Source of the DNA: a virus
Reading direction: 5' to 3' (one strand)
Length of the DNA: 43,354 nt
IMG/VR virus record: IMGVR_UViG_3300045988_068374
Below the pieces are notes generated by a model, which saw nothing but the letters and a program-made list of their open reading frames with translations, was not told the DNA's origin and made no database searches. Positions 5,774 through 41,660 of this stretch are shown here, piece by piece. The position numbers and the translations under genes are program-made. How positions within the stretch are numbered: the stretch's first letter is position 1; every line of letters starts with the position of its first letter.

Positions 5774-5775
5774 AC

Positions 5776-6066: not shown

Positions 6067-6271
6067 TTGCCGTAATTGCCCGGATCGGACTGTGAAATGC
6101 CATGCAACGTGCGAACGGTACAAGGCGTTTTGCGAAAGAAACGAAGCTATCAAGGCCGCAAGGCGGGAAGATTATTCAGCAAAGGGCATATTGGTTGCAG
6201 GCTACATAAAACGAGCTAAGGCCGTGCGGACGAAAACACAAAAAATGGTGTGGAGGTATCGCGGAACATGA
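6056..6271 (+). CDS. Cys-rich hypothetical protein
   Basis: Internal ATG. Translation begins MKSDCRNCPDRTVKCHATCERYKAFCERNEA. Confidence 0.5.
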   Translation: MKSDCRNCPDRTVKCHATCERYKAFCERNEAIKAARREDYSAKGILVAGYIKRAKAVRTKTQKMVWRYRGT

Positions 6272-24000: not shown

Positions 24001-25765
24001 CAACGCATTTTTCGTGCCCGTCAGAGCTGTCAAGAACACGATAGCATACGGCCTTGAGAATATAGCCGACGCGAAGATAAACGGCGGCATAGAGCGAAGC
24101 AAGGCAATGCTCAACTCAAGTAATGCGGCGGATGCGGCGCTTGTCAAATACGCAATGTCGGACTATGAGGCTGTGCAGGAGGTCATACTTTCGGGCGGCA
24201 AGTATGTCGATACATTTCAGGGCATCGACAAGCACAGGACGATATACAAGACCAAGATACTTGAGGCGGCACGCAAGGGCAACTCGGCAGCGCTTGACGC
24301 GGAAGACGCGTGGTTCTGCAAACCCGCGTATGCAAACGCGCTTGCCAAGTGGTACAAGGCAAACGGCATAAGCGCCGAACAGCTTAACACCGGCAATGTG
24401 CCGGAGGAGACGATAATCAAAGCACAGACCATTGCCATCAAGGAAGCGCAGAAAGCCACTTACCGCGATACCAACTGGTTTTCCGCTCAGGTCAGCAGGC
24501 TCGGCAAGGTGGATAACAAAGTTGCTGCTGTGCTCATTGAGGGCGTTCTGCCGTTCAAGAAAACCCCGGCCAATATCTTAGCCCGCGCTGTTGAATACTC
24601 GCCGGTCGGACTTGTAAAGTCCCTTGCGCTGGACACCAAAAAGGTCAAGGCATATGTAAACGGCGACGTTGAAAACGGCATGAGCCCCGCGCAGTTTATA
24701 GACGATGTTTCGGCAGGGCTTACGGGCTCGGCGCTTATGGGGCTGGGTATACTTTTAGCCTCATGGGGCGTTCTGAGCGGCGGTGATGACGATGACGAAA
24801 AGCAAAACTATTTCGACGATCTGAGCGGCAAGCAGAATTACGCCTTGAGCATAGGCGGTCTGAGCATCACGCTTGACTGGCTCGCGCCGGAGAGTATGCC
24901 GCTGTTTGTCGGCGTTGAGCTGTTCAACTCCCTGAGCAGCAAAAACGAGGACAAGGGATTTTTGCAGAACCTCATGAGCTCGGTCATGAGCCTGAGTACA
25001 CCGATGTTTGAAATGTCGATGCTGCAAAGCGTAAACGATCTTTTCGATAACCTCGCGTACATCAAGCAGGGACAGGGTACTTTTAAAATCGTATCGAGCA
25101 TGGCGGCAAACTACATATCGCAGTATTTCCCGACGCTGTTCGGACAGACTGAGCGCTCATTCGAGGAAACTCAGCGCGAGACGACATACATTGACCGCAA
25201 CAGCAAAGTCGGCTCTGAGATACAATACATGTGGGGCAAGATCGCAAACAAGATACCGTTTTACGATTTCAGTCAGATACCGTACATCGACGCATGGGGG
25301 CGCACGGAAGAAACCGGCAATCTCTTTGAGAGGATGCTCAACAACTTCATCAATCCCGCATATGTCAAGAAGGAGCGCCCGACGGAGATCGACGGCGAGC
25401 TTGAGCGGCTTTACGACCTCGGCGAAACGAGCGTATATCCCGGCCGCGCAAAGACGAACACCAAGATAAACGGCGAGTACCTGACAGCCGACGAGTATGT
25501 AAAATATGCAACGACGAAGGGGCAGACCTCATACGAGCTTGCGCAGGGCGTTATAAACAGCGCGGCATATTCCGGCGCATCAGACCCCGAAAAGGCGTAC
25601 ATGCTTAAATATGTCTATTCCTACGCCGATCATATTGCAAAGTACGAGGTCAACAACGACTATTCACTTGCAAAATGGGAGATGGCGGCATACAAGAGCG
25701 CAAACCCGATGCAGGCTATAATCGACCACGCACGGGAATATTACAATCCCGACAAAGAAAACTAA
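18077..25765 (+). CDS. giant (2,562 aa) multi-domain virion / ejection protein of polyvalent type
   Basis: Uninterrupted ORF. Gly-zipper hydrophobic segment around 18844-18955. Two HExxH motifs: HEMGH at 20597-20611 and HEIQH at 21431-21445. Hydrophobic helix LTGSALMGLGILLASWGVL around 24716-24783, followed by DDDD. Confidence 0.8.
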   Translation: MAKKINREEIKAEVKRRQQNAARDYAEKADLIAAGYKTAKTNSASGSAGKKPIGASTSKSNVLSQIDEIRNELGSRNKLSADALIANNPAYVYTKAYGDGKTGAAANKPVKGTATPRSRFEPADTGRPLGRASAQRAFTSTPTGNFKGEAVLKSALSSTGAAYKKLGADVTSSTGNLSMGESARAAIGEAKTAKKEGRQVKPGQAQRKAEQDKIKSFNDGWAGDFKQKLLESAEESSKRAYEYEQEAKEGLGKFGQGVVDFGIAGAQFAGDALLNAVAPGTGLAAMAGRAYGSASLDAQQRGLSEGEQQISGLKSAAIEMLTEKLFGSVSKVAYGKGIIKNESLVNSLVNRLAKTDRGRTALKVLVGANEEGLEEVLSDILNPIADRILKLDDGKGDWSDLADDFDTQQMLEDYIIGGALGLVGAGTNVVSGQYRAENAQQRAYEEYQRQLVNAGLATEQGGDAQLTAEKYKNILDQSTQRGKRNLSDKETANLESLIRGTYAQKDASDVSTRLAQLGTDASEQTVNAIVKAVNGETLSRAEQKAFDANPYSQRVVNEMLDTEGVTSNEWYADRASAQSFTPEVSSGINIEQAQNVLNTSTANNPQFVNSMARQYEVAPEVVERTYNLNPTAPQAFETAFNAVYQMGQQGTDKAALYKVPVLNTAQANIAYQMGADSVNAADVSTEAPTQAATVQAAAPVTINNTQEVNENGVRIHNVAERINGQNTEGQIRGVETGAGENVAGGSQKEQGGIGTAQIKAGEKVSYKGKQQKGVYYAAEDTEDMKKGRELAESYGYKVMYFVGGNIRYAGGEFRGVVDTANKTVMVRADHPDYTAEQIMRHEMGHAAFENGDLSLNEAKEMLLGDFTEDELNELIEIYSSEYGGILSTEEAFEEICCDALGRMNIFEGTDLNSESYGKAQDTVRKYAAERTGSKGRAPPKKGGVKYSYAGKHARTADLEQLERAKQMQTQGDDMENIRKATGWFKGRDGKWRFEIDDSKAEFRRDGDVRLMQEEGYRRMQELTDKWIASINEGTDFTEAEQAEMEQLGEKYYDTVWEEKYMLTDFLKHDELFEAYPRLKGVALQFDDLPAGTNGFFSKRSNTIVLSDKLFGKEADVLIHEIQHIIQNYEGFTKGSNPQYWNNRMENGYSKRWSTGEEMMPSELYRNTAGEIEARDAASRRTLTPEERKNKAPDLGDENTVFAEDGDGYAMSQSEQDSVKEQLREHQDALNNMKAVATIRDNGWRGMSTGAFRQKIVNNLKKTGYRVDNPSIGVIVFDEKLLNRSLNYIQTDAEAAAYQALPMVLKRGIEISEHGNHKGRDYETLTIAAPVELNGKRGNMAVVVMKTKGNRYKVHRILTPEGTAFALPEMTNAEPTTVGAFTNVSQTLGGSAPAISSASENSIPTSNQSVKRNYSREPEKLNELRRQNERKLAQATAEDAANENERGLIRDYQKQYSKVEDIREKLSAAQQTLTEAEDSGADYDTTTKAKNRFTLLSKQYAREHRKLNGYGSTKALQNVLERVSARTSKDAEHIDNRNFSNVGDRSLKPFQMEHPELHKYYEDMAQTVLYDIGMATQFRTTNGYPKTKFTDGFKRALGGSSFNDGLQALLDISNDQGSENYALAKRMELFLDDLLTNGYKGASGNAEYIRAKENISGGNTVWENFLEENSLAIADGLITEKELYKEFTQMRSDLPEGMGAASANFTGEEAVGERWVTEAQGEGDSALHPISKEQEANLAEQQHRAPQEIPKKDLNGKLTSKHVSTIANSGMTPAEFSDALREDAALGKFSHIAYSDEEALKKAERAISDDGWDQALANYKAEINSGRVSKDNTVMGIALYNNAVNSGDYATAMDIASLMVKNSTNTAQSLQAMRILNKLSPECRLYLAAKSIENIEEDLNERYKDNKADIHVDKILYDEYAKALRQGNEDGIKTAWANIEQSVAQQINATWYEKLNNFRYLAMLGNPRTHVRNIVGNAFFVPVRAVKNTIAYGLENIADAKINGGIERSKAMLNSSNAADAALVKYAMSDYEAVQEVILSGGKYVDTFQGIDKHRTIYKTKILEAARKGNSAALDAEDAWFCKPAYANALAKWYKANGISAEQLNTGNVPEETIIKAQTIAIKEAQKATYRDTNWFSAQVSRLGKVDNKVAAVLIEGVLPFKKTPANILARAVEYSPVGLVKSLALDTKKVKAYVNGDVENGMSPAQFIDDVSAGLTGSALMGLGILLASWGVLSGGDDDDEKQNYFDDLSGKQNYALSIGGLSITLDWLAPESMPLFVGVELFNSLSSKNEDKGFLQNLMSSVMSLSTPMFEMSMLQSVNDLFDNLAYIKQGQGTFKIVSSMAANYISQYFPTLFGQTERSFEETQRETTYIDRNSKVGSEIQYMWGKIANKIPFYDFSQIPYIDAWGRTEETGNLFERMLNNFINPAYVKKERPTEIDGELERLYDLGETSVYPGRAKTNTKINGEYLTADEYVKYATTKGQTSYELAQGVINSAAYSGASDPEKAYMLKYVYSYADHIAKYEVNNDYSLAKWEMAAYKSANPMQAIIDHAREYYNPDKEN

Positions 25766-25838: not shown

Positions 25839-27422
25839 ATGCCTTTGACAACTATAATGATCGGAAAGGCGCTGGCGGCGGTCACGGAAAACGAGACGCT
25901 TACCAGCGGCATGATAAACGCAAAGATCAAATTCGAGTTTTCCGAGGACTGGACTTCAAACATTTCAAAGACCGCGATATTCACGGCAGGCGACGTGACA
26001 AAGGTCGTGCTCGATTCGTACTGGGAAAACAATGTCTGCTCCATACCGCAGGAGTGCCTTGCAAAAAGCGACGAGATACTCATGGTCGGCATTTACGGCG
26101 CGGACAACGCAAACGTCGTTGCGATACCCACGGTGTGGGCGACGGTCGGCAAAATACGCAAGGGCTATGAGGGCTACGAGGACGTATCGACCGGCGCACT
26201 GCCTATATGGGCGCAGGTGCAGTCTGCTGCGGCGCAGTCGGCAACGGCGGCAAAGAATGCGCAGGACGCTGCGGAAGCGGCGCAGGGAAAGGCTGAGGAC
26301 GCACAGGCGGCAGCGGAGGCGGCACAGGCCAAAGCCGAGACCGCACAGAGCAAAGCGGAAACGGCACAGAGCAAGGCCGAGACTGCCCAGGGCAAAGCCG
26401 AAGCAGCACAAAGCAAGGCAGAAAGCGCGGCATCCTCGGCAGCAGGGTCGGCAGCAAGTGCGGCAAGCTCTGCATCGGCGGCATCGGCCAGCGAGACTGC
26501 AAGCGCACAGAGCGCTCAGACGGCCACGGAAAAAGCATCGGCGGCTCAGGCTGCGGCTCAGGCGGCACAGAGCGCCAAGGCAGACGCCGAGAGCGCGAAA
26601 GCGGCGGCAGTCACGGCAGGGGCAGATGCAGAGAGCGCGAATGCCTCCGCGCAGTCGGCAAAAACCGCAGCAGAGAGCGCAAAAACAGCGGCACAGGCGG
26701 CTCAGAGCAAGGCCGAAACTGCAAACACCTCGGCGCAGACCGCGAAAACTGACGCCGAGGCCGCGAATACTTCCGCGCAGAGTGCCAAGACTGCGGCAGA
26801 GAGCGCCAAGAGCGCGGCGGCAGGGAGCGCACAGAGCGCCGGAACGAGCGCGCAGAGCGCACAGACAAGCAGCAAGCTGTCCGAGAGCTGGGCGGTCGGC
26901 GGAACTGGGACACGAACCGGAGAGGACACGAACAACGCCAAGTACTGGTCAGAGCAGGCACAAAACGCGGCCGGCGGCGGCGTTTCAAGCTTCAACGGAC
27001 GCTCCGGAGCTGTTGCGCCTCAGACGGGCGACTACACCGCCGCAATGGTCGGAGCGGACGCTCAGGGCGCGGCACAGACCGTGCAGGACAACTTGAACAC
27101 CCACGCGCAGAACACCGCCATACATATAAGCGCCGCCGAGAGAACGTCGTGGAACGGCAAGAGCGGAAAGGCGGACTCCTTTACCGTGACGCTGACTGCG
27201 GCAGGGTGGAGCGCAGGCGCACAGACAGTCAGCAACAGCAAGTTTATCGCAAGCGGCTACGCCTATACGGTGTGCCCGGCAGGGGACAGCTTCAAGGACT
27301 ATGCCGAGGCGATGATCTACGCCGACAACGTGACAGCGGCGGGCAAGATGAGCTTTCACTGCGACGTAACGCCCACAAAAAATCTTACGGTCAACATTCT
27401 GAGAACGGAGGCAACGGCATGA
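25839..27422 (+). CDS. tail fibre protein (Ala/Gln/Ser-rich coiled-coil shaft)
   Basis: AAGGAGG RBS. AQSKAET heptad repeats. SESWAVGGTGTRTGEDTNNAKYWSEQA and VSSFNGRSGAV..QTGDYTAAMVGA motifs are common in phage fibres. Confidence 0.8.
   Translation: MPLTTIMIGKALAAVTENETLTSGMINAKIKFEFSEDWTSNISKTAIFTAGDVTKVVLDSYWENNVCSIPQECLAKSDEILMVGIYGADNANVVAIPTVWATVGKIRKGYEGYEDVSTGALPIWAQVQSAAAQSATAAKNAQDAAEAAQGKAEDAQAAAEAAQAKAETAQSKAETAQSKAETAQGKAEAAQSKAESAASSAAGSAASAASSASAASASETASAQSAQTATEKASAAQAAAQAAQSAKADAESAKAAAVTAGADAESANASAQSAKTAAESAKTAAQAAQSKAETANTSAQTAKTDAEAANTSAQSAKTAAESAKSAAAGSAQSAGTSAQSAQTSSKLSESWAVGGTGTRTGEDTNNAKYWSEQAQNAAGGGVSSFNGRSGAVAPQTGDYTAAMVGADAQGAAQTVQDNLNTHAQNTAIHISAAERTSWNGKSGKADSFTVTLTAAGWSAGAQTVSNSKFIASGYAYTVCPAGDSFKDYAEAMIYADNVTAAGKMSFHCDVTPTKNLTVNILRTEATA
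26322..26426 (+). repeat. five tandem 21-nt (heptad) repeats inside the tail fibre gene
   Basis: gcacaggccaaagccgagacc, gcacagagcaaagcggaaacg, gcacagagcaaggccgagact, gcccagggcaaagccgaagca, gcacaaagcaaggcagaaagc. Confidence 0.8.
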
Positions 27423-30356: not shown

Positions 30357-30647
30357 TTGACACAAACGATAATCACAACGGCTGCTCTTATCGCGGCGGT
30401 TATAGCAATCGCCGGGTACTATAACAAGGTATATAACTGGGTAAAGCACCAAGAGGAGCAAGATAAGCGCATGGACAGGATAGAGAGAGCTGCCGCCACT
30501 GAGCGGAAAGAGCTGACCCTGATAGTCTATGCGTTGTCGGCCTGCCTTGACGGGCTGGGGCAGCTCGGCGCAAACCACACAGTTACCGATGCAAAAACCA
30601 AATTAGATAAACACATCAATAAACAGGCACATCAACAGGAGGGCTAA
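30357..30647 (+). CDS. membrane protein with N-terminal TM helix and coiled-coil (holin-associated)
   Basis: TTG start 9 nt after GGAGG. IITTAALIAAVIAIAGYY is a TM helix. Adjacent to the holin gene. Confidence 0.55.
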   Translation: MTQTIITTAALIAAVIAIAGYYNKVYNWVKHQEEQDKRMDRIERAAATERKELTLIVYALSACLDGLGQLGANHTVTDAKTKLDKHINKQAHQQEG

Positions 30648-30649
30648 TT

Positions 30650-30913
30650 ATGAAAATCAACTGGAAGGTTCGTATTAAAAACAAGATGTTCTGGCTCGCG
30701 CTCATCCCCGCGCTGCTTCTGCTCGTGCAGGTAGTAGCGGCGGTGTTCGGCTACGAGCTGCAAATCGAGGCCATAGGCGATAAGCTCACGGCGGTAATCA
30801 ACGCGCTGTTCGCGGTGCTGGCTATACTCGGCGTAGTCACCGACCCGACGACCGCCGGTGTAAGCGACAGCAAGCAGGCTATGGAGTATGAAAAGCCGAA
30901 GTGTGATAAATGA
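30650..30913 (+). CDS. holin (phi LC3 / Phage_holin_1 family)
   Basis: MKINWKVRIKNKMFWLALIPALLLLVQ...VVTDPTTAGVSDSKQAMEYEKPK closely matches the family consensus as I remember it. Confidence 0.85.
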   Translation: MKINWKVRIKNKMFWLALIPALLLLVQVVAAVFGYELQIEAIGDKLTAVINALFAVLAILGVVTDPTTAGVSDSKQAMEYEKPKCDK

Positions 30914-31158
30914 CACAGGCACGTTTGAGGCTGCCGCCGGACATGGCGCTGCTGCCGCGTGAACAGTGGGAAAAGCTAATATACAGCTCAAACCTCGGAC
31001 GCGAGGGCAGCAAGATCGCTGATCTGTATTTCATACAGCAGATACCGCAGATAGACATTGCAGAGGAAATAGGGCTTGACCGAAAAACCGTCTCGAAACG
31101 CCTTTCTACGGCAAGAGCAAAAATTGAACACAATTACGAGCGGCTTTTCAAAAGCTGA
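30910..31158 (+). CDS. small sigma-70 region-4-like HTH protein
   Basis: ADLYFIQQIPQIDIAEEIGLDRKTVSKRLSTARAKI. Last gene of the late operon. Confidence 0.6.
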   Translation: MTQARLRLPPDMALLPREQWEKLIYSSNLGREGSKIADLYFIQQIPQIDIAEEIGLDRKTVSKRLSTARAKIEHNYERLFKS

Positions 31159-31186
31159 GAGGAGGCAAACACCTCCTCTTTTTTTA
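31159..31186 (+). terminator. rho-independent terminator ending the late operon
   Basis: GAGGAGG-caaaca-CCTCCTC followed by TTTTTTT. Confidence 0.85.
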
Positions 31187-31272
31187 CGCGCATATTCCCC
31201 ATAACACGGACATTGAGTACCCCCTTGAAATCGGAAAAGGCTTTAAGCTTTTAAGTACAAGGAGGCGGCGAA

Positions 31273-31656
31273 ATGTTCGTGTTTTTTAATCCCAACCCGG
31301 ATGCAAAGCGCGTGGGCGACTGCACCGTGAGAGCGATAGCCAAGGCGATGAATACCGTTTGGGATAAGACCTATCTCGCTTTGTGCGTTGAAGGTCTGAG
31401 AGTACATGACATGCCCTCGGCAAACAATGTTTGGGGTAGTTACCTTAAGGCCAACGGCTTTAGACAGCATGCGCTGCCGGACACCTGTCCCGAGTGCTAC
31501 ACAGTAGCCGCCTTCGCTAACGAACATCCGCAGGGCACTTATGTGCTCGCACTGTCCGGCCACGTCGTAGCGGTCGTAAACGGCGACTATTACGACACGT
31601 GGGACAGCGGGGACGAGGTGCCGGTCTACTACTTTGAAAAACGGGAGGAACAATAA
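31273..31656 (+). CDS. hypothetical protein with a Cys...His arrangement (possible papain-like fold), accessory cassette gene A
   Basis: GGAGG RBS. VGDCTVRAIAKA early in the protein and LSGHVVAVVNGDYYDTWD late. Confidence 0.6.
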   Translation: MFVFFNPNPDAKRVGDCTVRAIAKAMNTVWDKTYLALCVEGLRVHDMPSANNVWGSYLKANGFRQHALPDTCPECYTVAAFANEHPQGTYVLALSGHVVAVVNGDYYDTWDSGDEVPVYYFEKREEQ

Positions 31657-32018
31657 TGGCTTTTGGTTACAACACACCGTATGGGTATTATCAGCCGCCT
31701 ATGATGGACAACCTCGCGCAGATGCGAGCACAGCAGCCTGCACAACAGGGCATGATCTGGGTGCAGGGAGAGGCGGCAGGCAAGTCGTATCTCGTCGCAC
31801 CGGGCAATACAGTGCCACTGTGGGACAGTGAGCGGCAGACGATATACCTAAAGTCCGTAGACGCTTCGGGCATACCGGCAATGCGAATACTCGACTACAC
31901 GGAAAGAACGCAGTCAATGCCGGCTCCCGGCGTGGAGTATGTGACACGCGCAGAGTATGACGCGCTCGCAAAAAAGGTCGAGGCGCTTATACCGAAGGAG
32001 GAAGTAAACAATGGGTAA
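31656..32018 (+). CDS. hypothetical protein, cassette gene B
   Basis: TAATG coupling to the upstream stop. Gln/Pro/Tyr-rich N-terminus, then IWVQGEAAGKSYLVAPGNTVPLWDSE..IYLKSVDASG. Confidence 0.6.
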   Translation: MAFGYNTPYGYYQPPMMDNLAQMRAQQPAQQGMIWVQGEAAGKSYLVAPGNTVPLWDSERQTIYLKSVDASGIPAMRILDYTERTQSMPAPGVEYVTRAEYDALAKKVEALIPKEEVNNG

Positions 32019-32217
32019 TCCGCTTTTTCAGGCGCTGGGCGGCGGCATGAACCCGCAGTTTCAGAACCTTGTGCAGCGCTTCCAGCAGTTTAAGAGCACG
32101 TTTCAGGGAAACCCTCAGCAAGAGGTACAAAAGATGCTGCAGAGCGGCAGGATAACACAGCAGCAGTTAAATCAGGCGCAGGCATTTGCGCAGCAGTTCC
32201 AGGCACTTATGAAGTAA
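32011..32217 (+). CDS. small Gln-rich protein, cassette gene C
   Basis: GGAGGA RBS. 68 aa, about one quarter Gln (QFQNLVQRFQQFKSTFQGNPQQEVQKMLQ...). Confidence 0.55.
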   Translation: MGNPLFQALGGGMNPQFQNLVQRFQQFKSTFQGNPQQEVQKMLQSGRITQQQLNQAQAFAQQFQALMK

Positions 32218-32273
32218 GTACATTTTATCCGGCCGGGTATTTGTAAATACATTTTGAAAGGAAAAATTAAATC

Positions 32274-32990
32274 ATGGCTCTTTCTTCCGATGCGCCGGTA
32301 ATGACTATGCCGGTATCACCCTCCAACTCCGGCTGGGGCGGCTTTGGCGGTGATGGATGGTGGATGATCCTCTTTGTCATCATGCTTTTCGGCTGGGGCG
32401 GCAACGGCTGGGGCGGCAACAACGGCGGTGTTATGGACGGCTATGTCCTGACCTCCGACTTTGCAAACCTCGAACGCAAGCTTGACGGCGTTAACAGCGG
32501 TCTGTGCGACGGCTTTTACGCAATGAACACGGGTATGCTCAACGGCTTTGCAAACGTCACTCAGGCGGTCACAAGCGGCTTCCAGACCGCTGAATTGTCC
32601 AAGTGCAACCAGCAGGCCGCGCTAATGGCACAGCTTAACGCAATGCAGATGCAGGCGCAGGAGTGCTGCTGCGAGAACCGTGCAGCGATAGCACAGGTGC
32701 GCTATGACATGGCAACGCAGGCATGCGACACGCGCAACACCATTCAGAACAGCACTCGTGACATTATCGATAACGCCAACTGCAACAGCAAGGCAATTCT
32801 CGACTTCCTCGTGAACAGCAAGATGCAGGATCTGCAGACCGAAAATCAGAACCTCAAGCTTGCAGCTTCTCAGGCAGCACAGAACAATTACCTTGTCTCG
32901 CAGCTCAGGCCGTGCCCCACTCCGGCTTACATCACCTGTAACCCGTGGGCAGCGTCCGCACCTTACGGCGCTTGCGGTAACTGCGCATAA
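32274..32990 (+). CDS. Gly/Trp-rich membrane-anchored, Cys-rich coiled-coil protein, cassette gene D
   Basis: SGWGGFGGDGWWMILFVIMLFGWGGNGWGGNNGG N-terminus. ECCCENR triple-Cys motif. C-terminus PCPTPAYITCNPWAASAPYGACGNCA. Confidence 0.65.
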   Translation: MALSSDAPVMTMPVSPSNSGWGGFGGDGWWMILFVIMLFGWGGNGWGGNNGGVMDGYVLTSDFANLERKLDGVNSGLCDGFYAMNTGMLNGFANVTQAVTSGFQTAELSKCNQQAALMAQLNAMQMQAQECCCENRAAIAQVRYDMATQACDTRNTIQNSTRDIIDNANCNSKAILDFLVNSKMQDLQTENQNLKLAASQAAQNNYLVSQLRPCPTPAYITCNPWAASAPYGACGNCA

Positions 32991-33058
32991 CAATTGCACA
33001 GCACAGCTTTTTCGTGACTTCACGAAAATGATCGGGCTTTTACCGATACTAAGATCAA

Positions 33059-33090
33059 GCGGTGAGGCTCACGTCTCACCGCATTTTTTA
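33059..33090 (+). terminator. rho-independent terminator
   Basis: GCGGTGAG-gctcacgt-CTCACCGC followed by ATTTTTTAT. Confidence 0.8.
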
Positions 33091-33106
33091 TGAAAGGATA
33101 AACATT

Positions 33107-33334
33107 ATGGCTACTTGCAAAAGACTCAAAGATAAGTACATTAAGCACCTTATGAGCATGGACTTAGATAAGCTCGATATGACAGAGCTAAATACCTTTG
33201 CGTTCATCATCAAGACGCTTGATGAGACCGAGCGTGAAGATTATTTCGGCAGAATGCTCAAAATAATGCCTTGGAGTAACGGCATAGGCGCAGTTACTCG
33301 AGCAACCGACAAGGAGGATAAAACCGATGGCTGA
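33107..33334 (+). CDS. small hypothetical protein, cassette gene E
   Basis: Internal ATG of track ORF 33062..33334, just after the terminator. 75 aa. Confidence 0.5.
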   Translation: MATCKRLKDKYIKHLMSMDLDKLDMTELNTFAFIIKTLDETEREDYFGRMLKIMPWSNGIGAVTRATDKEDKTDG

Positions 33335-33749
33335 ATTCACAAACTCTAATATTGTGACCGTCGCAGCGGGGCAGAATGTGCCTCTGACGGAAACGGCGGT
33401 GCAGGGCAATTGCAGTATCGTACACCGTGAGGGCGCGGGCATTGTCACACTGCGCGGTCTGACAAACCAGTGCAGGGCGCGTTTCCGCGTTGCCTTCGGC
33501 GCGAACATAGCGATACCCACGGGCGGCACGGTCGAGGCAATAACCGCCGCTATCGCAATAAACGGTGAGCCGCTTACCGCTGCAACGGCGACTGTGACAC
33601 CGGCTGTCGTGGGAAATTATTTTAACATTTATGTTGCGGCAAATGTAAACGTTCCGCGTGATTGCTGCCTGACTGTGGCAGTTAAGAACACAAGCGGACA
33701 GGCTATTAACTTCGCAAACTCCAACCTGATCGTTGAGAGAATTGCATGA
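33327..33749 (+). CDS. stand-alone C1q/TNF-like (BclA C-terminal-domain-like) jelly-roll protein, cassette gene F
   Basis: AAGGAGGA RBS. Pattern ...FRVAFGANIAIP......AIAINGEPL......NVNVPRDCCLTVAVKNTSG..INFANSNLIVERIA resembles trimeric BclA/C1q-type head domains (from memory). Confidence 0.5.
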   Translation: MAEFTNSNIVTVAAGQNVPLTETAVQGNCSIVHREGAGIVTLRGLTNQCRARFRVAFGANIAIPTGGTVEAITAAIAINGEPLTAATATVTPAVVGNYFNIYVAANVNVPRDCCLTVAVKNTSGQAINFANSNLIVERIA

Positions 33750-33762
33750 GAGGAGTAAAACT

Positions 33763-34158
33763 ATGAGTATGAGATCACTTGAAAAACTTCGTGATATGCT
33801 GTGCGAGGAGCTTGACGATATCGCGGAACAGGGCGAACTGAATACAGGCGCACTCGATGTCATCGACAAGCTTGTACACAGCGTCAAGAACATCGACAAG
33901 ATCATGATGGCCGATGGCTACAGCCGTACCGGCGAATGGGACGCAGAGGGTTACATGCGCGGCAACAGCTATCGCAGAGGCCGCGACAGTATGGGGCGCT
34001 TTACCTCACGCGATGCCGGGTACAGCCGCAGAGGGTACAGCCGCGCCGACGGTGCGGAACACGCTATCGAGCAGCTTGAGGATATGCTCAAGGATGCGGG
34101 CGGCGAGTCTGAGCACATGGCGATAAAGAAAGCAATCAGTGTGCTGAAAAACGCATAA
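33763..34158 (+). CDS. hypothetical protein with helical ends and a central Arg/Gly/Tyr/Ser-rich region, cassette gene G
   Basis: GAGAGGAG RBS with an internal ATG. YSRTGEWDAEGYMRGNSYRRGRDSMGRFTSRDAGYSRRGYSR. Confidence 0.55.
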   Translation: MSMRSLEKLRDMLCEELDDIAEQGELNTGALDVIDKLVHSVKNIDKIMMADGYSRTGEWDAEGYMRGNSYRRGRDSMGRFTSRDAGYSRRGYSRADGAEHAIEQLEDMLKDAGGESEHMAIKKAISVLKNA

Positions 34159-34159
34159 A

Positions 34160-34182
34160 TTTACGACAAAATTTACGACAAC
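34160..34182 (+). repeat. arm-type repeat, left copy (two TTTACGACAA units)
   Basis: TTTACGACAAAATTTACGACAAC is identical to 34390..34412. Confidence 0.85.
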
Positions 34183-34215
34183 ACTAAAAAGTCTTGATTT
34201 ATCAACGTTTATAAA

Positions 34216-34252
34216 GCTGTGTGGATGGGTTCGAGTCCCACCACCGGCACCA
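34216..34252 (+). tRNA. 3' fragment of a tRNA gene (T arm, acceptor 3' strand, CCA); probable attP core, not a full tRNA
   Basis: TGGG-TTCGAGT-CCCA T arm, then CACCGGC-A-CCA. No matching GCCGGTG 5' acceptor strand exists upstream. Confidence 0.65.
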
Positions 34253-34259
34253 AGAAACA

Positions 34260-34300
34260 GAAAATCCCGTAGTTGTTCAAAATACGGGATTTTCTTTATT
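34260..34300 (+). terminator. rho-independent terminator following the tRNA fragment
   Basis: AAAATCCCGTA-gttgttcaaaa-TACGGGATTTT followed by CTTTATTTAT. Confidence 0.7.
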
Positions 34301-34389
34301 TATCAATGGCTTGCGGAGTTTTTGCATCATACACAAAACAACAAATAAATACATTTAACAGCGCAAAAATACATAATTTAATGCGCAAT

Positions 34390-34412
34390 TTTACGACAAA
34401 ATTTACGACAAC
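34390..34412 (+). repeat. arm-type repeat, right copy
   Basis: TTTACGACAAAATTTACGACAAC. It overlaps the integrase stop region. Confidence 0.85.
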
Positions 34413-35509
34413 GGAAGATAGAAGTTGCGCATAGTCTCCACATCGGCGTTTTTGTCTGTTTCGGAGAGTTTGATATATATTTCATGCACTATCTTCGGGT
34501 CACTCCATCCGCCGATAAGCATCGTCTGCCGCTCACTCCATCGGAGATGATAAGCAAGAGAAGCAAAGCTGCGCCTTAATCCGTGCAGCCCGACATTAGG
34601 CAAGCCGTTTTTGAGACAAACGCGGTGTATTCTGTCGCTGTGTGTGCCCGGATGTTCGGGGAGCAGCGGTTTATCATCGGGGATATCAAGACTGCTTATC
34701 AGCTCCGCAAGCCTTGGTATCATTATCGGCACATTGCGCCGCGATTTTTTTGTTTTGTTTGTGCTCTTGCGTACAAACCCACCGTCTTTGGAGGCTACCA
34801 CGCTGCCTCTTATGTGAATCATACCATCGTGGATATCTCGTGGAGTGAGGGCGATAAGCTCGGACCGGCGCAAGCTGTGAAGTGCTAAAAGCGCAGCAAG
34901 CTCACATTTTTCTCCCCGGGTAGCTTTTACAAACACTTCGATTTGGTTAAAATCAAGCCACGGCATTTCTTTGGGCACAACAGGCGGCAAAGCAACATTG
35001 TCGTGCTTTATACCGCATTTGTCCAGCACAGCGCTCATTAAGCCCCACTCGTTCTTCAATGTTTTTGCCGAGACACGCTTTGCTTCGCCGTTAACTACCT
35101 TCTGCCAGTCCTTTATGCTATATATATCCTCTCCGCAAAGGCTTGGGAATGCGTTGTTTTTTACCGATGTATAAGCCTTTAGCGTCGAGGGAGATATAAT
35201 ATTATCTTTACTGTTTAAATAATTGTCTATTGCTTTTTCCACAGTAAGAGATTGAGGCTTCTTGTCAACAGGCACAAAACCGGCGCGGATAGCCTGAGCT
35301 TTGGCTATGGCGGCTGCTTCCGTATCTTCAATGACCGTCACGCCCTCACGGCGAAGATCAACATACCACTTCTGCCCACGCTTACGCGGCGTGGGTATTT
35401 TTATTTCATCTCTCCTTTTGCGTTCGCGCTGAAGCTTCTCGCCGCAATAGCAGCAGTATACGGGATGAAGCTCATCCGGTATATCCGCTTTGCATTTTTT
35501 GCACTTCAT
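34403..35509 (-). CDS. int: tyrosine integrase with N-terminal zinc ribbon
   Basis: Internal ATG (MKCKKCKADIP...CCYCGEKL) with an AAGGAGA RBS. Catalytic-type motifs LHSLRRSEL, HGLRRSFASL and GGWSDPKIVHEIYIKL. Confidence 0.9.
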   Translation of the reverse strand: MKCKKCKADIPDELHPVYCCYCGEKLQRERKRRDEIKIPTPRKRGQKWYVDLRREGVTVIEDTEAAAIAKAQAIRAGFVPVDKKPQSLTVEKAIDNYLNSKDNIISPSTLKAYTSVKNNAFPSLCGEDIYSIKDWQKVVNGEAKRVSAKTLKNEWGLMSAVLDKCGIKHDNVALPPVVPKEMPWLDFNQIEVFVKATRGEKCELAALLALHSLRRSELIALTPRDIHDGMIHIRGSVVASKDGGFVRKSTNKTKKSRRNVPIMIPRLAELISSLDIPDDKPLLPEHPGTHSDRIHRVCLKNGLPNVGLHGLRRSFASLAYHLRWSERQTMLIGGWSDPKIVHEIYIKLSETDKNADVETMRNFYLPLS

Positions 35510-35573: not shown

Positions 35574-36152
35574 TTAATCCTGTGGGCGTTTTGCTGCTTT
35601 GGCATCATGAATTACGGTTTTCACCGCAAAGGAGATCAGGGCGACGGCAGCAAGCACCACGATAGCCAGGAACACGGCCAACACCGTTAAGCCGCCGGAG
35701 CGGAACAGACCGATGTTTTTAAGCTGTATATCAAATATTACATATCCGATGGTTGCGCATAGCAGGATAGCACATACACCTACAAGGCAGAAGATCAGCG
35801 GCCTGTAAACGGCGTTCATGCGCTTGTGGTACTCAACGTCCTTTTCCAGACATGCCGCTTTAACCTCCAATGCGTTTATCCGCTTTAGCTGGGTAACGCT
35901 GCCTTCTGTGTTTGTTATACCGAACAGCTCGTCTAAGGATAATCCGAGCGCTTTACAGGTTGCCGCAGAGTAATAAAGCAGCGGCTGCTTCGTAGTGCCG
36001 GAGTTGACGGAGCAAATGCTGTTGTAGGGAACGCCGCTTATCCTTGCCAGTTCTGCCAGCGTAAGACTGCTTGAAGCTCTCGCTTTTCGCAGCGCCTCAG
36101 GGTACTCGTCAAAATAAGATTGCATATCCTCCATTTTTGACACATTAAGCAT
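35574..36152 (-). CDS. membrane-anchored XRE-family HTH regulator (start uncertain: 36152, 36134 or 36125)
   Basis: LTLAELARISGVPYNSICSVNSG is an HTH. A coiled-coil follows, then two hydrophobic helices PLIFCLVGVCAILLCATIGYVIF and LTVLAVFLAIVVLAAVALISFAV. The track N-terminus is a translation of the upstream repeats. Confidence 0.7.
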   Translation of the reverse strand: MLNVSKMEDMQSYFDEYPEALRKARASSSLTLAELARISGVPYNSICSVNSGTTKQPLLYYSAATCKALGLSLDELFGITNTEGSVTQLKRINALEVKAACLEKDVEYHKRMNAVYRPLIFCLVGVCAILLCATIGYVIFDIQLKNIGLFRSGGLTVLAVFLAIVVLAAVALISFAVKTVIHDAKAAKRPQD

Positions 36153-36162
36153 CTCCCCTATT

Positions 36163-36283
36163 AAAATTTCTTGAAATACACGAGAAATTCTTGAATTACA
36201 CGATGAATTCTTGAAATTCACGAAAATTTCGGGTAATTCCCGAAATCGATTTCGGTTATTTCTTTAAGGTTTCGGTTATTTCT
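36163..36283. promoter_or_regulatory. 20-bp-periodic repeat array upstream of the membrane XRE gene
   Basis: TTCTTGAA[AT]T[AT]CACGA at 36167, 36187 and 36207. Palindrome ATTTCGGG-taatt-CCCGAAAT at 36226-36246. TTTCGGTTATTTCT at 36250 and 36270. Confidence 0.7.
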
Positions 36284-40589: not shown

Positions 40590-41113
40590 GGGCTGAGATA
40601 CACGATCTGACTTTCACGATGGACGGTGCGCAGGTGATATCTTTCCGCACAAAGGACGATTGCCGAGAGCTGTACGAAACGCTGAAAGGCAAGGATTTAG
40701 ATGTTACGGCCAAGAAACACCGCGAACCGCGCAGTCTGAACGCTAACGCCTACGCGTGGAAGCTGATAGACGAAATATCGCTTGCTACGCGGATAAGCCC
40801 CAAAACCGTATACCGCAGGGCGCTTGAAGATGTTCCGACGATACGCTACACGCTGCTTGTGGCCGATGAAGATGTAGAAAACGCTATAGCCGACTTTGTG
40901 CGCGGCCACATCGGGCGACGATGCGACAAGCAATATGCCTACACCGGCTATACGAACGTTACGTTTCACAGCGGCAGTTCCGATTTTGATACCCGGCAAA
41001 TGTCGATGCTGATAGACAATCTGATTCAGGACTGCCGGGCGCTGGGTATCGAAACAAGGCCGGTAGACGAAATAGAAGCTTTGTTGGAGGCGTGGGATGG
41101 AAAAATGGGTTGA
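40586..41113 (+). CDS. NinB/Orf-like recombination mediator
   Basis: PRSLNANAYAWKLIDEIS and GSSDFDTRQMSMLIDNLIQDCRALGIET parallel lambda NinB (RSLDQNRKLWA ... STSRM..GEF..L). Confidence 0.55.
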   Translation: MRAEIHDLTFTMDGAQVISFRTKDDCRELYETLKGKDLDVTAKKHREPRSLNANAYAWKLIDEISLATRISPKTVYRRALEDVPTIRYTLLVADEDVENAIADFVRGHIGRRCDKQYAYTGYTNVTFHSGSSDFDTRQMSMLIDNLIQDCRALGIETRPVDEIEALLEAWDGKMG

Positions 41114-41660
41114 TATAAAAGGCTATGAAGGGCTGTATATGATTTCTGATCAGGGTAATATCAAAGCTTTGCCTAAGTATGTGCCTTATACCCACGCGAA
41201 CGGCAAAAAGTGCTACAGGGCGGCAAAAGAACAAATCATGACACCCCACGATAACGGCAATGGTTATCAGTATATTACACTTCGCAAAAATAAGGTCAGG
41301 AAGAATTATTATGTACATCGATTAGTTGCTGAAGCTTTTTGCGAACATCCTGCTGGCTGCGATTATGTCGATCACATAAATAATGTAAAGACCGACAACA
41401 GAGCGGCAAATCTGCAATGGCTAACGCAAAAGGCAAATATATTGAAATCAGTTCCTAATATGCGTGTGCCGCGTAGCAGGTTTAAGGCAACTAACACAGG
41501 CCACAAATATATCAGTTTTCGGGAAAACAGGTATCGGTTCTGCTTTAAAAGCAAATCCGAAGGCATAAAAAATTACACTTCGCACAAGACCTTAGAGGAA
41601 GCGCTTAGGAGAAGGGAGGCGGTATTGAGTGGCACAAAGTATTATGCAGGCATCGCGTGA
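41097..41660 (+). CDS. HNH homing endonuclease (NUMOD4 + HNH_3)
   Basis: WVDIKGYEGLYMISDQGNI is NUMOD4-type. VHRLVAEAFC...VDHINNVKTDNRAANLQWLTQKAN is HNH-type. AT-rich island. Confidence 0.85.
   Translation: MEKWVDIKGYEGLYMISDQGNIKALPKYVPYTHANGKKCYRAAKEQIMTPHDNGNGYQYITLRKNKVRKNYYVHRLVAEAFCEHPAGCDYVDHINNVKTDNRAANLQWLTQKANILKSVPNMRVPRSRFKATNTGHKYISFRENRYRFCFKSKSEGIKNYTSHKTLEEALRRREAVLSGTKYYAGIA

What the first reader, a model, noticed from the sequence alone, without database searches (positions are those of the whole stretch)
31273..34158. Seven-gene accessory cassette of unknown function between the lysis terminator and attP
After the late-operon terminator, and just inside attP (the classic moron / lysogenic-conversion position), lie two plus-strand units separated by a terminator at 33059. 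The first is A-B-C-D (31273-32990) and the second is E-F-G (33107-34158). The products are as follows. A has a Cys...His arrangement (GDCTVRA / SGHVVAV..DTWD) reminiscent of a papain-like peptidase. B has a Tyr/Pro/Gln-rich head plus IWVQGEAAGKSYLVAPG. C is a 68-aa protein that is about 25% Gln. D is a Gly/Trp-rich membrane-anchored Cys-rich coiled-coil. E is a 75-aa protein. F is a stand-alone C1q/TNF-like jelly-roll. G has helical ends around an RG/YSR-rich low-complexity core. None is a recognisable virion, lysis, replication or known defence component. Genes are translationally coupled (TAATG, ATGnnTGA overlaps), which implies stoichiometric co-production. The composition (Cys-rich cross-linkable protein, BclA-head-like trimer, Gln-rich and RGY-rich low-complexity proteins) is reminiscent of spore-coat or exosporium and other self-assembling surface layers. 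One hypothesis is a phage-borne surface- or spore-modifying module. Alternatives are a secreted or bacteriocin-like system processed by A, or accessory virion decoration.
Basis: inference. Interest (0 to 1): 0.7.

Follow-up and report, generated by a model that had tools for sequence, protein, structure and literature searches.

The report
Widespread six-gene late module of gut phages
The seven genes are real, but six of them form a block that thousands of gut phages, temperate and virulent, clostridial to crAss-like, carry at the end of their late genes, so it looks like an unexplained part of the phage's own programme and not a spore- or host-converting add-on.

Summary
The ORFs, both terminators, the overlapping start/stop codons and attP are all present as described. 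One correction: G starts at 33763 (131 aa) and does not overlap F.

None of A-G reaches a curated Pfam or NCBIfam cutoff, and none matches PADLOC. All PHROG matches are to families of unknown function.

F is a TNF/C1q-type jelly roll closest to BclA-CTD and ExsFA/BxpB. A is a minimal papain-like thiol peptidase with invariant Cys17, His97 and Asp108.

Comparative genomics changes the interpretation. A-B-C-D-F-G is present in 43-46 of 46 phage loci whose tail, lysis and integrase genes are otherwise unrelated. E is a variable insert (5 of 46).

The block occurs in Butyrivibrio phage Ceridwen, which has no integrase and was seen only in lytic growth. D homologues with every signature motif occur in crAss-like phages, a cultured Bacteroides phage and predicted archaeal viruses. 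The peptidase slot holds either A or a small HExxH protein, never both.

Lysogenic conversion and spore modification are therefore unlikely. My best guess, at low confidence (0.33), is a separately regulated late assembly of a D stalk, an F head and helper proteins, displayed on released particles. A membrane or egress role is nearly as likely.

The parts
30910..31158 (+). 82-aa sigma-70 region-4-like HTH protein, a candidate dedicated regulator of the module
   Evidence: Weak Sigma70_r4/r4_2 matches below the Pfam cutoff. The positional counterpart in L028 reaches Sigma70_r4 at E 3.1e-07 and matches PHROGs annotated as transcriptional regulator or activator. A homologue lies directly upstream of the module in 12 of 46 related loci and in several distant ones.
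31157..31180 (+). Terminator-like hairpin with a T-run between the HTH gene and A
   Evidence: Most other lineages also have a GC-rich hairpin plus T-run 20-40 nt upstream of A's ribosome-binding site, with different sequences.
31273..31656 (+). A: 127-aa minimal papain-like thiol peptidase, no signal peptide
   Evidence: Asn6, Asp16, Cys17, Arg20, His97 and Asp108 are invariant in both alignments, and Asn8 in the closer one. The AF2 model has pLDDT 94. The only credible PDB match is the Josephin-2 deubiquitinase (prob 0.94, TM 0.48). In BFVD it matches many small uncharacterised phage proteins, with weaker matches labelled C39 and Josephin. PHROG 3754, unknown function. It never co-occurs with a small HExxH protein in the same module.
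31656..32018 (+). B: Tyr/Pro/Gln-rich disordered head, a roughly 60-aa beta-rich domain, and a helix with the motif 'EYVTxxEF'
   Evidence: PHROG 21718. An iterated HMM finds it in 46 ORFs across the D-containing loci, always just upstream of D, including C. perfringens phage CPD1. No Pfam or PDB relative.
32011..32217 (+). C: 68-aa helical protein, 28% Gln, also Met-rich, with repeated 'NP' motifs
   Evidence: PHROG 22984. A protein of this type lies between B and D in every lineage inspected. Composition. The PDB hits to TALE repeats are an additive artefact.
32274..32990 (+). D: hallmark protein of the module. It has an acidic N-tail, a hydrophobic segment flanked by Gly/Trp (WWMILFVIMLFGW), a long helical Asn/Gln/Ala-rich region with an invariant CCC, and a Pro/Cys-rich C-terminus (RPCPxPAY..CNP..CGC)
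   Evidence: PHROG 16490. Alignment and invariant residues. It has 11 Cys and is the only protein of the seven with a membrane-like segment. The family has 1,620 clusters at 50% identity, always stand-alone at 118-333 aa. Homologues with every motif occur in crAss-like phages.
32991..33106 (+). D-E/F intergenic region with three hairpins, the last being the terminator-like one at 33059-33082
   Evidence: The three-hairpin layout recurs with different sequences in Oscillospiraceae-type relatives. It is absent from low-GC Bacilli-type relatives, where D and F are 16-38 nt apart.
33107..33334 (+). E: 75-aa variable insert, not part of the conserved core
   Evidence: Found in 5 of 46 related loci. 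Absent from the near-identical phages L136 and L138 and present in L135 and L137. No family match.
33327..33749 (+). F: 140-aa stand-alone TNF/C1q-type jelly roll with an invariant Cys-Cys pair. It is the most conserved protein of the block
   Evidence: AF2 model with pLDDT 92. Foldseek matches to F-BclA CTD, ExsF/ExsFA/BxpB, EDA and BclA at E 5e-07 to 6e-06 and TM about 0.62-0.76, and also to phage tail knobs. Median identity 77% across loci whose neighbouring genes are unrelated. PHROG 20016.
33763..34158 (+). G: 131-aa protein with helical ends around an Arg/Gly/Tyr/Ser-rich disordered core
   Evidence: Start codon. PHROG 28802, weak. Present in 46 of 46 related loci at a median 41% identity. 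Positional counterparts elsewhere carry Asp/Tyr/Arg-rich cores with or without DUF7841.
34160..34412 (.). attP region that bounds the module
   Evidence: A tRNA 3'-end-like core at 34224-34252 between 23-nt direct repeats. The integrated relative ends at two tRNA-Ser genes.

Best explanation
Shown: A-B-C-D-F-G is a self-contained phage module that moves between otherwise unrelated phage backbones. It sits at the distal end of the late (structural plus lysis) gene block and is often preceded by its own small sigma-region-4 HTH gene and a terminator. It is not host-derived cargo.

Inferred mechanism:
1. The six proteins are made late in the cytoplasm. None has a signal peptide.
2. D forms an elongated helical, probably trimeric, stalk.
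3. The Met/Gln-rich C keeps D's hydrophobic Gly/Trp-flanked N-terminal segment soluble.
4. The TNF-like F trimer docks on a peptide of D or B, as stand-alone ExsFA/BxpB docks BclA-type filaments.
5. B and G, each a folded domain plus low-complexity region, act as adaptors.
6. The small peptidase (A here, an HExxH enzyme in other versions) trims one component during assembly.
7. The Cys-rich assembly leaves the cell at lysis and oxidises outside. It most likely ends up as an accessory fibre or decoration on phage particles, with a conserved head (F) and fast-evolving attachment parts (B, G).

Steps 1-7 and the final location are inference. None was tested directly.
For: Mobility and conservation:
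- In 46 loci with D 55-85% identical, A is present in 45, B in 46, C in 43, D in 46, F in 46 and G in 46. Tail-fibre, CHAP, holin and integrase homologues are found in 0-5.
- G+C content is ordinary for the genome.

Role in the lytic cycle:
- The whole block is in Ceridwen, which has no integrase and was seen only in lytic growth.
- D is in crAss-like phages, in plaque-forming Bacteroides phage C3_41T2LP and in predicted archaeal viruses.

Late position:
- Upstream neighbours in 28 non-redundant loci are dominated by holins and wall hydrolases.
- Downstream neighbours are integrases, host genes or early genes.
- In L028 the block follows a 900-aa ORF that I read as a tail fibre from its size and position; it was not tested.
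- In Suoliviridae crAss-like phages it lies between lysis genes and virion structural genes.

Structural character:
- F has a TNF-like fold that also matches solved phage tail proteins, namely the phi812 spike knob and cyanophage A-1(L) and A4 tail proteins.
- GenBank annotators called D homologues 'viral fiber' or 'spike'.
- D, F and the alternative partner F2 are Cys-rich and lack signal peptides. From established knowledge, this is the pattern of particles and spore coats built in the cytoplasm and released by lysis.

Peptidase as an integral part: A and a roughly 100-165-aa HExxH protein are mutually exclusive, with 13 loci having A, 7 having HExxH and none having both (my Fisher's test gives about 0.007, uncorrected for shared ancestry).

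Conservation gradient: F 77% > D 64% > C 58%, A 57% > B 44%, G 41%.
Against: - D carries a strictly conserved hydrophobic segment of 13-15 residues that looks like a membrane anchor or insertion peptide. This is unusual for a fibre shaft.
- The block is separated from the structural genes by the lysis genes and a terminator. That suggests expression after, or apart from, virion assembly.
- The same block accompanies siphovirus-type, crAss-type and other backbones, so any attachment to the particle would have to be generic.
- F is far more conserved than receptor-binding heads usually are.
- D and F are not translationally coupled in this lineage, because a terminator-like hairpin lies between them.
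- No PHROG, Pfam or PDB sequence relative links any of the proteins to a virion component.
- There is no proteomic evidence.
Confidence: 0.33

Rival explanations
1. Membrane-anchored late complex acting in lysis or egress. D inserts into the cytoplasmic membrane through its Gly/Trp-flanked segment. By weak positive-inside bias the orientation is N-out, C-in, which puts its Cys-rich domain with the soluble partners in the cytoplasm. Alternatively the segment acts like a fusion peptide exposed by peptidase cleavage. The complex would work with the holin to breach or remodel the membrane at the end of infection. That step is common to monoderm, diderm and archaeal hosts.
For: - D is the only protein of the seven with a hydrophobic segment. 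The segment and its GG..GWGGNG flanks are the most widely conserved signature, from Firmicutes phages to crAss-like and predicted archaeal viruses.
- The flank charge is K+R 0.46 on the N side and 1.5 on the C side.
- Lysis genes are the commonest upstream neighbours. They include a lysozyme directly before D in a Prevotella-MAG contig and holin-containing lysis clusters just upstream of the module in two Suoliviridae subfamilies.
- Placement after the holin and behind an HTH gene plus terminator fits very late expression.
- The module is independent of host envelope type.
Against: - No holin, spanin or other lysis family matches D.
- Five soluble partners, including a TNF-like trimer and a peptidase, have no precedent in lysis systems.
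- In CPD1, C3_41T2LP, cr271_1 and csAssE-Sib the block is not annotated next to lysis genes.
- In Firmicutes phages, anything at the end of the late operon ends up next to lysis genes, so adjacency is weak evidence.
- The hydrophobic core is short for a transmembrane helix.
Confidence: 0.28
2. Superinfection exclusion or another lysogenic-conversion function. D would be a membrane protein expressed from the prophage that alters the cell surface or blocks incoming phage DNA.
For: The block lies at the prophage end next to attP, bracketed by terminators. It includes a membrane-type protein. Known exclusion proteins are small membrane proteins (established knowledge).
Against: - No promoter-like site precedes either unit.
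- G+C content is ordinary.
- The block is near-universal within its phage group, not sporadic.
- It is kept by an apparently virulent phage and by crAss-like phages.
- Six co-conserved genes are far more than known exclusion systems need.
- No PADLOC match.
Confidence: 0.1
3. Spore-coat or exosporium-modifying module. The phage proteins would be incorporated into the host spore surface.
For: F's best structural matches are exosporium proteins. L028's F-slot protein gives a sub-threshold BclA_C hit at E 0.012. The Cys-rich, Gln/Tyr-rich and Asp/Tyr/Arg-rich compositions recall coat proteins (the resemblance is from memory).
Against: - D is present in phages of non-sporulating Bacteroidota and in predicted archaeal viruses.
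- The whole block is in Ceridwen, which was seen only in lytic growth on Butyrivibrio.
- No Pfam spore or exosporium family reaches its threshold.
- In all 31 non-redundant loci inspected the neighbours are phage genes, or host genes beyond a prophage edge.
Confidence: 0.03
4. Secreted or bacteriocin-like product matured by A. A C39-like peptidase would remove a double-glycine-type leader from D or C, and the product would be released as an antimicrobial or signalling peptide.
For: A shares the Cys...His...Asp order and the 'DC' and 'HxVV' motifs with C39 domains (from memory). It gives a weak BFVD match to a C39-labelled phage protein at E 0.018. D and C have Gly-Gly motifs after short N-terminal segments.
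Against: - There is no ABC transporter and no immunity gene.
- There is no Pfam Peptidase_C39 match.
- Gly-Gly is unavoidable in the Gly-rich D, so the motif is not diagnostic.
- A is replaced by an HExxH protein in other versions.
- D is 200-330 aa and conserved along its whole length.
Confidence: 0.04

Closest known systems
BclA / ExsFA (BxpB) filament-anchoring pair of the Bacillus exosporium, including the F-ENA ExsF-F-Anchor complex (PDB 9h38, 9h3d, 7r1m, 8d02, 1wck)
   Same: F is a stand-alone trimer-type TNF/C1q jelly roll of 140 aa with no signal peptide. These proteins are its top structural matches. They are likewise built in the cytoplasm and released by lysis. Its partners are Cys-rich and low-complexity proteins.
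   Different: Sequence identity is only 9-17%, and no BclA_C Pfam match passes the cutoff. There is no collagen-like partner; the repeat protein at 25839-27422 is an Ala-rich coiled coil and is not co-conserved. The module is phage-borne and occurs in phages of non-sporulating hosts.
Phage accessory fibres with dedicated helpers (for example T4 fibritin or tail fibres with gp57A-type chaperones, and lambda stf-tfa next to attP). This comparison is from memory.
   Same: An elongated helical protein plus a globular beta head, small helical helper proteins and a maturation peptidase. All are late genes and dispensable-looking add-ons at the edge of the structural region.
   Different: No homology to any fibre, chaperone or decoration family. 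D has a membrane-like hydrophobic segment. The head is a separate polypeptide. The block lies after the lysis genes, behind a terminator.
Papain-fold peptidases of the Josephin and C39 type
   Same: The order and spacing of the catalytic residues, which are invariant. The predicted fold matches Josephin-2 (prob 0.94) and, weakly, viral proteins labelled C39 or Josephin.
   Different: A has only 127 aa. TM is 0.48 to Josephin-2. There is no Pfam match, no ubiquitin-like or ABC-transporter partner, and the substrate is unknown.
Spanins and class I viral fusion proteins (membrane anchor or fusion peptide, coiled coil and protease activation). This comparison is from memory.
   Same: A Gly/aromatic-rich hydrophobic peptide near the N-terminus, then a long helical region, then a Cys/Pro-rich end. 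A peptidase is encoded alongside. The genes are adjacent to holins. Others annotated crAss homologues as 'spike protein/glycoprotein'.
   Different: No lipobox and no two-component arrangement. The module is present in monoderm hosts that have no outer membrane. There is no sequence match to any spanin or fusion family.
Stand-alone PolyVal/SprT-type metallopeptidases and DUF7841 proteins of phages
   Same: Variant modules carry DUF7841 (PF25223) in the G slot and a small HExxH protein in the A slot. C3_41T2LP's copy is annotated as a PolyVal metallopeptidase.
   Different: The window's version has neither. Both families are themselves uncharacterised.

Membership tests
Moron / lysogenic-conversion cassette | Lies at a prophage end next to the attachment site | tested here: met
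   attP core and repeats at 34160-34412. In the integrated relative, tRNA-Ser genes and host genes follow G directly.
Moron / lysogenic-conversion cassette | Own promoter, expressed from the repressed prophage | tested here: inconclusive
   No sigma-70-type promoter was found in 31181-31272 or 33083-33106. A terminator lies only 20-40 nt before A's ribosome-binding site in most other lineages; in this window the gap to A's start codon is 92 nt. Expression itself cannot be tested with these tools.
Moron / lysogenic-conversion cassette | Sporadic distribution and atypical composition relative to the phage backbone | tested here: not met
   Present in 43-46 of 46 related loci whose neighbouring genes are unrelated. 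G+C content is 0.50-0.54, within the genome's range.
Moron / lysogenic-conversion cassette | Confined to temperate phages | tested here: not met
   Ceridwen has no integrase or excisionase and was seen only in lytic growth. D also occurs in crAss-like phages and in plaque-forming C3_41T2LP.
Exosporium BclA / ExsFA-BxpB family (F) | TNF/C1q-like jelly-roll fold | tested here: met
   Model pLDDT 92. Top Foldseek matches are 9h38, 9h3d, 7r1m, 8d02 and 1wck, at E 5e-07 to 6e-06 and TM about 0.62-0.76.
Exosporium BclA / ExsFA-BxpB family (F) | Sequence membership (Pfam BclA_C or a PDB sequence match) | tested here: not met
   No Pfam hit for F. No PDB sequence hit with the single sequence or the profile. 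L028's F-slot protein scores 15.9 bits against a cutoff of 38.
Exosporium BclA / ExsFA-BxpB family (F) | Occurs in spore-forming bacteria and is assembled on spores | tested here: not met
   Every F and D locus inspected is phage or prophage. D-based modules occur in phages of Bacteroidota. Assembly on spores is not testable here.
Peptidase C39 / papain-like thiol peptidases (A) | Conserved catalytic Cys, His and Asp/Asn with an upstream oxyanion Gln/Asn | tested here: met
   Asn6, Cys17, His97 and Asp108 are invariant in 18 diverse and 41 closer sequences, and Asn8 in the closer set.
Peptidase C39 / papain-like thiol peptidases (A) | Profile or fold membership | tested here: inconclusive
   No Pfam C39 or other peptidase hit above cutoff. 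The Josephin-2 match has prob 0.94 but TM 0.48. The BFVD protein labelled C39 matches at E 0.018.
Peptidase C39 / papain-like thiol peptidases (A) | Linked ABC transporter and a double-glycine leader substrate | tested here: not met
   No transporter is encoded in or near the module. The Gly-Gly motifs in D and C are not diagnostic.
Holins / spanins (D) | Membership of a holin or spanin family, or the lipobox / two-component architecture | tested here: not met
   No Pfam, NCBIfam or PHROG lysis family matches D. D has no lipobox (sequence). Adjacency to lysis genes is frequent but does not define membership.
Known anti-phage defence systems | Match to a PADLOC model | tested here: not met
   Only chance-level hits, at E 0.022 and 0.0021 over short stretches.
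Phage tail fibre / receptor-binding proteins | Homology to a fibre or RBP family, or location inside the tail module | tested here: not met
   The PHROG families matched by A-D, F and G are all of unknown function. In this window the block is separated from the tail genes by the lysis genes. There is only fold-level resemblance of F to tail knobs.
Endospore appendage (Ena, DUF3992) subunits | Pfam DUF3992 match, or an N-terminal Cys connector plus jelly roll | tested here: not met
   No Pfam hit for F or for the alternative partner F2. No PDB sequence hit for F2. F2's N-terminal CxxxCxxC is only a lead.

The most novel reading that the evidence does not exclude
Phages of gut anaerobes, across Firmicutes, Bacteroidota and possibly methanogenic archaea, share a dedicated very-late module that builds a new kind of phage structure. 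It would be one of two things. The first is an exosporium-like coat or nap that becomes cross-linked through cysteines on oxidation, anchored by an ExsF-type TNF trimer and carried on released particles. The second is a device that works regardless of host envelope type and ruptures or inserts into the membrane, centred on D's fusion-peptide-like segment and activated by the module's peptidase. Neither has a described counterpart in phage biology.
Probability: 0.2. Interest if true: 0.85.

Novelty: new variant of a known kind. Interest (0 to 1): 0.6.

Why it matters
This is one of the more common blocks of unexplained genes in gut phages.
- The D family alone has 1,620 clusters at 50% identity.
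- More than 7,900 clusters at 90% identity pass E 0.001, and that search stopped at its 8,000-candidate limit.
- The exact window protein is recorded on 294 contigs.

The block moves as a unit between unrelated backbones and is kept under strong constraint. Its hallmark protein D crosses the Firmicutes-Bacteroidota phage divide into Crassvirales.

A function would annotate thousands of phage genomes at once. It would also bear on an open question: what gut phages need beyond particle building and lysis. Candidates are persistence, adhesion or release in the anaerobic gut.

The comparative result also has practical value. Genes between the lysin and attP should not automatically be read as lysogenic-conversion cargo.

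Two cultured systems make the question directly testable: Ceridwen on Butyrivibrio fibrisolvens DSM 3071, and C3_41T2LP on Bacteroides uniformis.

Tried and rejected
- **Family searches.** Pfam, NCBIfam and PADLOC on A-G gave nothing above cutoff. All PHROG matches are to families of unknown function.
- **PDB sequence searches.** Single sequences or profiles of A, B, C, D, F and F2 gave no credible relatives. The low E-values of C against TAL effectors are sums of about 15 sub-significant repeat matches and were rejected.
- **Profile-profile tests across phyla.** F versus F2, F versus crAss gp44, and B versus the Bacteroides-phage 177-aa protein were all negative (prob <1%). Outside Firmicutes phages only D is shown to be homologous, plus DUF7841 in the G slot. 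The neighbouring genes are positional analogues only.
- **Collagen-like partner for F.** The high-GC gene at 25839-27422 is an Ala/Gln/Ser-rich coiled coil and is not co-conserved with the module (0 of 46).
- **Shared promoter motif.** No motif is shared between the module's intergenic regions and the rest of the window.
- **Rfam.** No family matched 30500-34600.
- **Literature.** Searches for DUF7841, TNF-like phage proteins, ExsFA/BclA in phages and C. perfringens phage proteomics found nothing relevant.
- **Double-glycine leader in D.** I did not pursue this statistically, because the region is Gly-rich throughout.

Full report
**1. Observation**

The seven plus-strand ORFs are present as described. 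A/B overlap by one base (TAATG). B/C and E/F overlap by eight bases each.

G is best started at the ATG at 33763, behind a GAGGAG ribosome-binding site. That gives 131 aa, as in public gene calls, so F and G do not overlap.

Terminator-like hairpins with T-runs lie at 31157-31180 and 33059-33082.

Upstream are a CHAP endolysin, a Phage_holin_1 holin and an 82-aa sigma-70 region-4-like HTH protein. Downstream is a tyrosine integrase on the opposite strand.

The window is a complete-looking temperate phage. It has a terminase, portal, major head protein and internal virion protein, and a 2,562-aa polyvalent protein.

attP is supported by a tRNA 3'-end-like core between exact 23-nt direct repeats. 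In an integrated relative the cassette is followed directly by two tRNA-Ser genes and host genes.

**2. What the proteins are**

None of A-G reaches a curated Pfam or NCBIfam cutoff, and none matches a PADLOC defence model. A, B, C, D, F and G match PHROG families 3754, 21718, 22984, 16490, 20016 and 28802, all of unknown function. E matches nothing. Public records call all seven 'hypothetical protein [Caudoviricetes sp.]'.

*F.* Modelled with 43 homologues, F gives a confident all-beta model (pLDDT 92). Its best PDB matches are the F-BclA C-terminal domain, ExsF/ExsFA/BxpB, EDA and BclA, at E 5e-07 to 6e-06 and TM about 0.62-0.76. Phage tail knobs follow. Sequence membership of BclA_C is not met.

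*A.* A has invariant Asn6, Asp16, Cys17, Arg20, His97 and Asp108 and a confident model (pLDDT 94). Its only credible PDB match is the papain-fold deubiquitinase Josephin-2 (prob 0.94, TM 0.48). In BFVD it matches many small uncharacterised proteins of diverse phages, with weaker hits labelled C39 and Josephin. A is thus a minimal papain-like thiol peptidase with an unknown substrate.

*D.* D is the only protein with a strongly hydrophobic segment. Its family signature is an acidic N-tail, then GG..G-[WF], then 12-14 hydrophobic residues, then GWGGNG. After that comes a long Asn/Gln/Ala-rich region with an invariant CCC, then ASQxAQ...RPxPxPAY..NP..CGC. The flanking charges lean weakly towards an N-out/C-in orientation.

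*B, C and G.* C is 28% Gln and also Met-rich. B has a Tyr/Pro/Gln-rich head, a small beta domain and a helix. G has helical ends around an Arg/Gly/Tyr-rich core.

**3. Comparative genomics**

All three families searched are large: the D and F searches each stopped at the 8,000-candidate limit, with 7,989 and 7,978 clusters passing E 0.001. The A search returned 4,321. An exhaustive search found 1,620 D clusters at 50% identity, all stand-alone proteins of 118-333 aa.

In 49 genome-collection loci and 80 IMG/VR loci the order A-B-C-D-(E)-F-G recurs. Across 46 loci with D 55-85% identical and at least 8.5 kb of upstream sequence, the counts are as follows:

| Gene | Loci with a homologue (of 46) | Median identity |
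|---|---|---|
| A | 45 | 57% |
| B | 46 | 44% |
| C | 43 | 58% |
| D | 46 | 64% |
| F | 46 | 77% |
| G | 46 | 41% |
| E | 5 | 56% |
| Tail-fibre, CHAP, holin and integrase genes | 0-5 | n/a |

E is also absent from two near-identical phages. The block is therefore a six-gene module that moves between unrelated backbones, with E as an insert. The small HTH gene precedes it in 12 of 46 loci and in several distant lineages. In L028 the counterpart reaches Sigma70_r4 at E 3.1e-07.

**4. Range**

The whole block, with an HNH endonuclease inserted between F and G, lies after the endolysin and holins of Butyrivibrio phage Ceridwen. The Ceridwen authors found no integrase or excisionase and saw only lytic growth (PMC7372960).

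An iterated HMM census shows that B sits just upstream of D in most D loci (46 B-family ORFs), including C. perfringens phage CPD1. By inspection, a C-type protein always lies between B and D.

D homologues carrying every signature motif occur in several further groups:
- crAss-like phages of the Suoliviridae and Intestiviridae, where the genes use recoded TAG;
- the crAss-like phage csAssE-Sib;
- the plaque-forming Bacteroides uniformis phage C3_41T2LP;
- viruses assigned by their depositors to Methanomassiliicoccales.

Outside Firmicutes phages the genes next to D are similar in size and composition. However, profile-profile tests did not show them to be homologous to F or B. Only DUF7841, which fills the G slot in some Firmicutes versions, is shared.

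**5. Module variants**

In some lineages F is replaced by an unrelated Cys-rich beta protein of about 130 aa with an N-terminal CxxxCxxC.

The peptidase slot is filled either by A or by a roughly 100-165-aa HExxH protein, never both. Thirteen loci have A, seven have HExxH and none has both. Two downstream neighbours hit SprT-like, and C3_41T2LP's copy is annotated as a PolyVal metallopeptidase. This replacement by an unrelated enzyme suggests that proteolysis is integral to the module.

**6. Position and regulation**

Upstream neighbours in 28 non-redundant loci are dominated by lysis genes: PG_binding_1 in six, five holins, lysozymes, amidases, CHAP, NlpC/P60 and XhlA. Downstream neighbours are integrases, host genes beyond a prophage edge, or early genes.

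The module therefore closes the late region. In temperate members that puts it next to attP.

In most lineages a terminator hairpin lies 20-40 nt before A's ribosome-binding site. Oscillospiraceae-type lineages keep a three-hairpin D-F spacer with differing sequences. Low-GC lineages lack it.

No sigma-70 promoter, shared motif or Rfam family was found.

**7. Interpretation**

Lysogenic conversion and spore-surface modification are disfavoured for four reasons:
- conservation of the block;
- ordinary G+C content;
- presence in virulent-type phages;
- presence in phages of non-sporulating hosts.

Two readings remain close.

(i) *A cytoplasmically assembled accessory structure released at lysis.* It would consist of a D stalk, an F head docking in the ExsFA manner, C as a holdase for D's hydrophobic segment, B and G as adaptors, and a trimming peptidase. 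It would most likely sit on particles.
- In favour: F's fold, which also matches solved phage tail proteins.
- In favour: Cys-rich proteins without signal peptides.
- In favour: the number of helper-like genes.
- In favour: a conserved head alongside fast-evolving partners.
- Against: D's membrane-like segment.
- Against: the position behind the lysis genes and a terminator.
- Against: independence of particle architecture.

(ii) *A D-anchored membrane complex acting at egress.*
- In favour: the universally conserved hydrophobic signature.
- In favour: frequent linkage to holins.
- In favour: independence of host envelope type.
- Against: there is no precedent for such partners in lysis.

I give (i) 0.33 and (ii) 0.28. 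Every mechanistic step is inference. What is shown is the gene content, two folds, the conserved residues and the distribution.

**8. Novelty and verdict**

The families exist in PHROGs as unknowns. I found no description of the module, its cross-phylum hallmark protein D, or the alternation of peptidases.

It cannot be filed under any known family. Several defining features of the moron, exosporium, C39, holin/spanin, defence and tail-fibre classes were tested and not met. I rate it a new variant of a known kind (a late accessory phage module), with about 0.2 probability that it is something categorically new.

Interest is moderate to high. The module is very widespread, strongly constrained and testable in two cultured systems, but it has no demonstrated function.

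Noticed in passing
window 34160-34412: attP architecture: a tRNA 3'-end-like core (34224-34252) followed by a terminator-like hairpin, bracketed by exact 23-nt direct repeats (TTTACGACAAAATTTACGACAAC) that are probably integrase arm sites. In an integrated relative the same repeat, in reverse complement, precedes two tRNA-Ser genes.
   Followed up: partly
L050 10157-10951; L051 6044-6667; L133 5006-5626; L022 11795-12628: HNH / I-HmuI-type homing endonuclease genes lie inside or right next to the module in unrelated phages: Ceridwen, CPD1 and C3_41T2LP. The L022 ORF looks similar by eye but was not tested. This suggests the conserved D region is a homing target.
   Followed up: partly
L052 (crAss-like cr115_1) 1586-6631: The D homologue and its neighbours contain in-frame TAG codons, and one neighbour has a TGA. 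This fits the stop-codon recoding known for some crAss-like phages. Translation with the standard table fails.
   Followed up: partly
window 32991-33106 and the equivalent spacers in L001, L006, L010, L013, L021, L004, L012, L018, L043: A conserved three-hairpin D-F spacer, the last hairpin terminator-like, keeps its structure while its sequence differs between lineages. It may be an attenuator or a processing site that sets the ratio of A-D to F-G. Low-GC lineages lack it.
   Followed up: partly
window 18077-25765: A 2,562-aa ORF is a polyvalent protein. The precomputed Pfam hits on record are LPD23 and only faint ones for LPD3 and DUF6782. Close relatives carry MuF_C, ART-PolyVal or PBECR3 instead, so the domains are swapped between near-identical phages.
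   Followed up: no
window 25839-27422: The high-GC (0.64), strongly AT-skewed stretch encodes an Ala/Gln/Ser/Lys-rich repeat ('AETAQSKAE') coiled-coil protein, not a collagen-like one. It is presumably a fibre shaft. It overlaps the start of the next ORF as listed (27149), so that gene probably starts later.
   Followed up: partly
L039 10646-11032, L045 10727-11119, L040 3575-3973, L051 7376-7753, L022 11123-11509: An alternative partner family ('F2') occupies the F slot. It is about 130 aa, beta-rich, with an invariant N-terminal CxxxCxxC plus a fourth Cys. It has no Pfam or PDB relative. It could be a metal-binding or disulfide-connector protein.
   Followed up: partly
window 35574-36221 (minus strand): The 215-aa gene next to the integrase combines an N-terminal HTH-like region with C-terminal hydrophobic helices. 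A homologue of about 30% identity was found somewhere in the fetched flank of 23 of 36 module-bearing loci; its position there was not checked. The integrase is not conserved in those loci. It may be a membrane-tethered repressor.
   Followed up: no
window 41097-41660: A 187-aa ORF in the early region corresponds to a NUMOD4/HNH_3 homing endonuclease in the near-identical contig L137. It is another mobile endonuclease in this phage.
   Followed up: no
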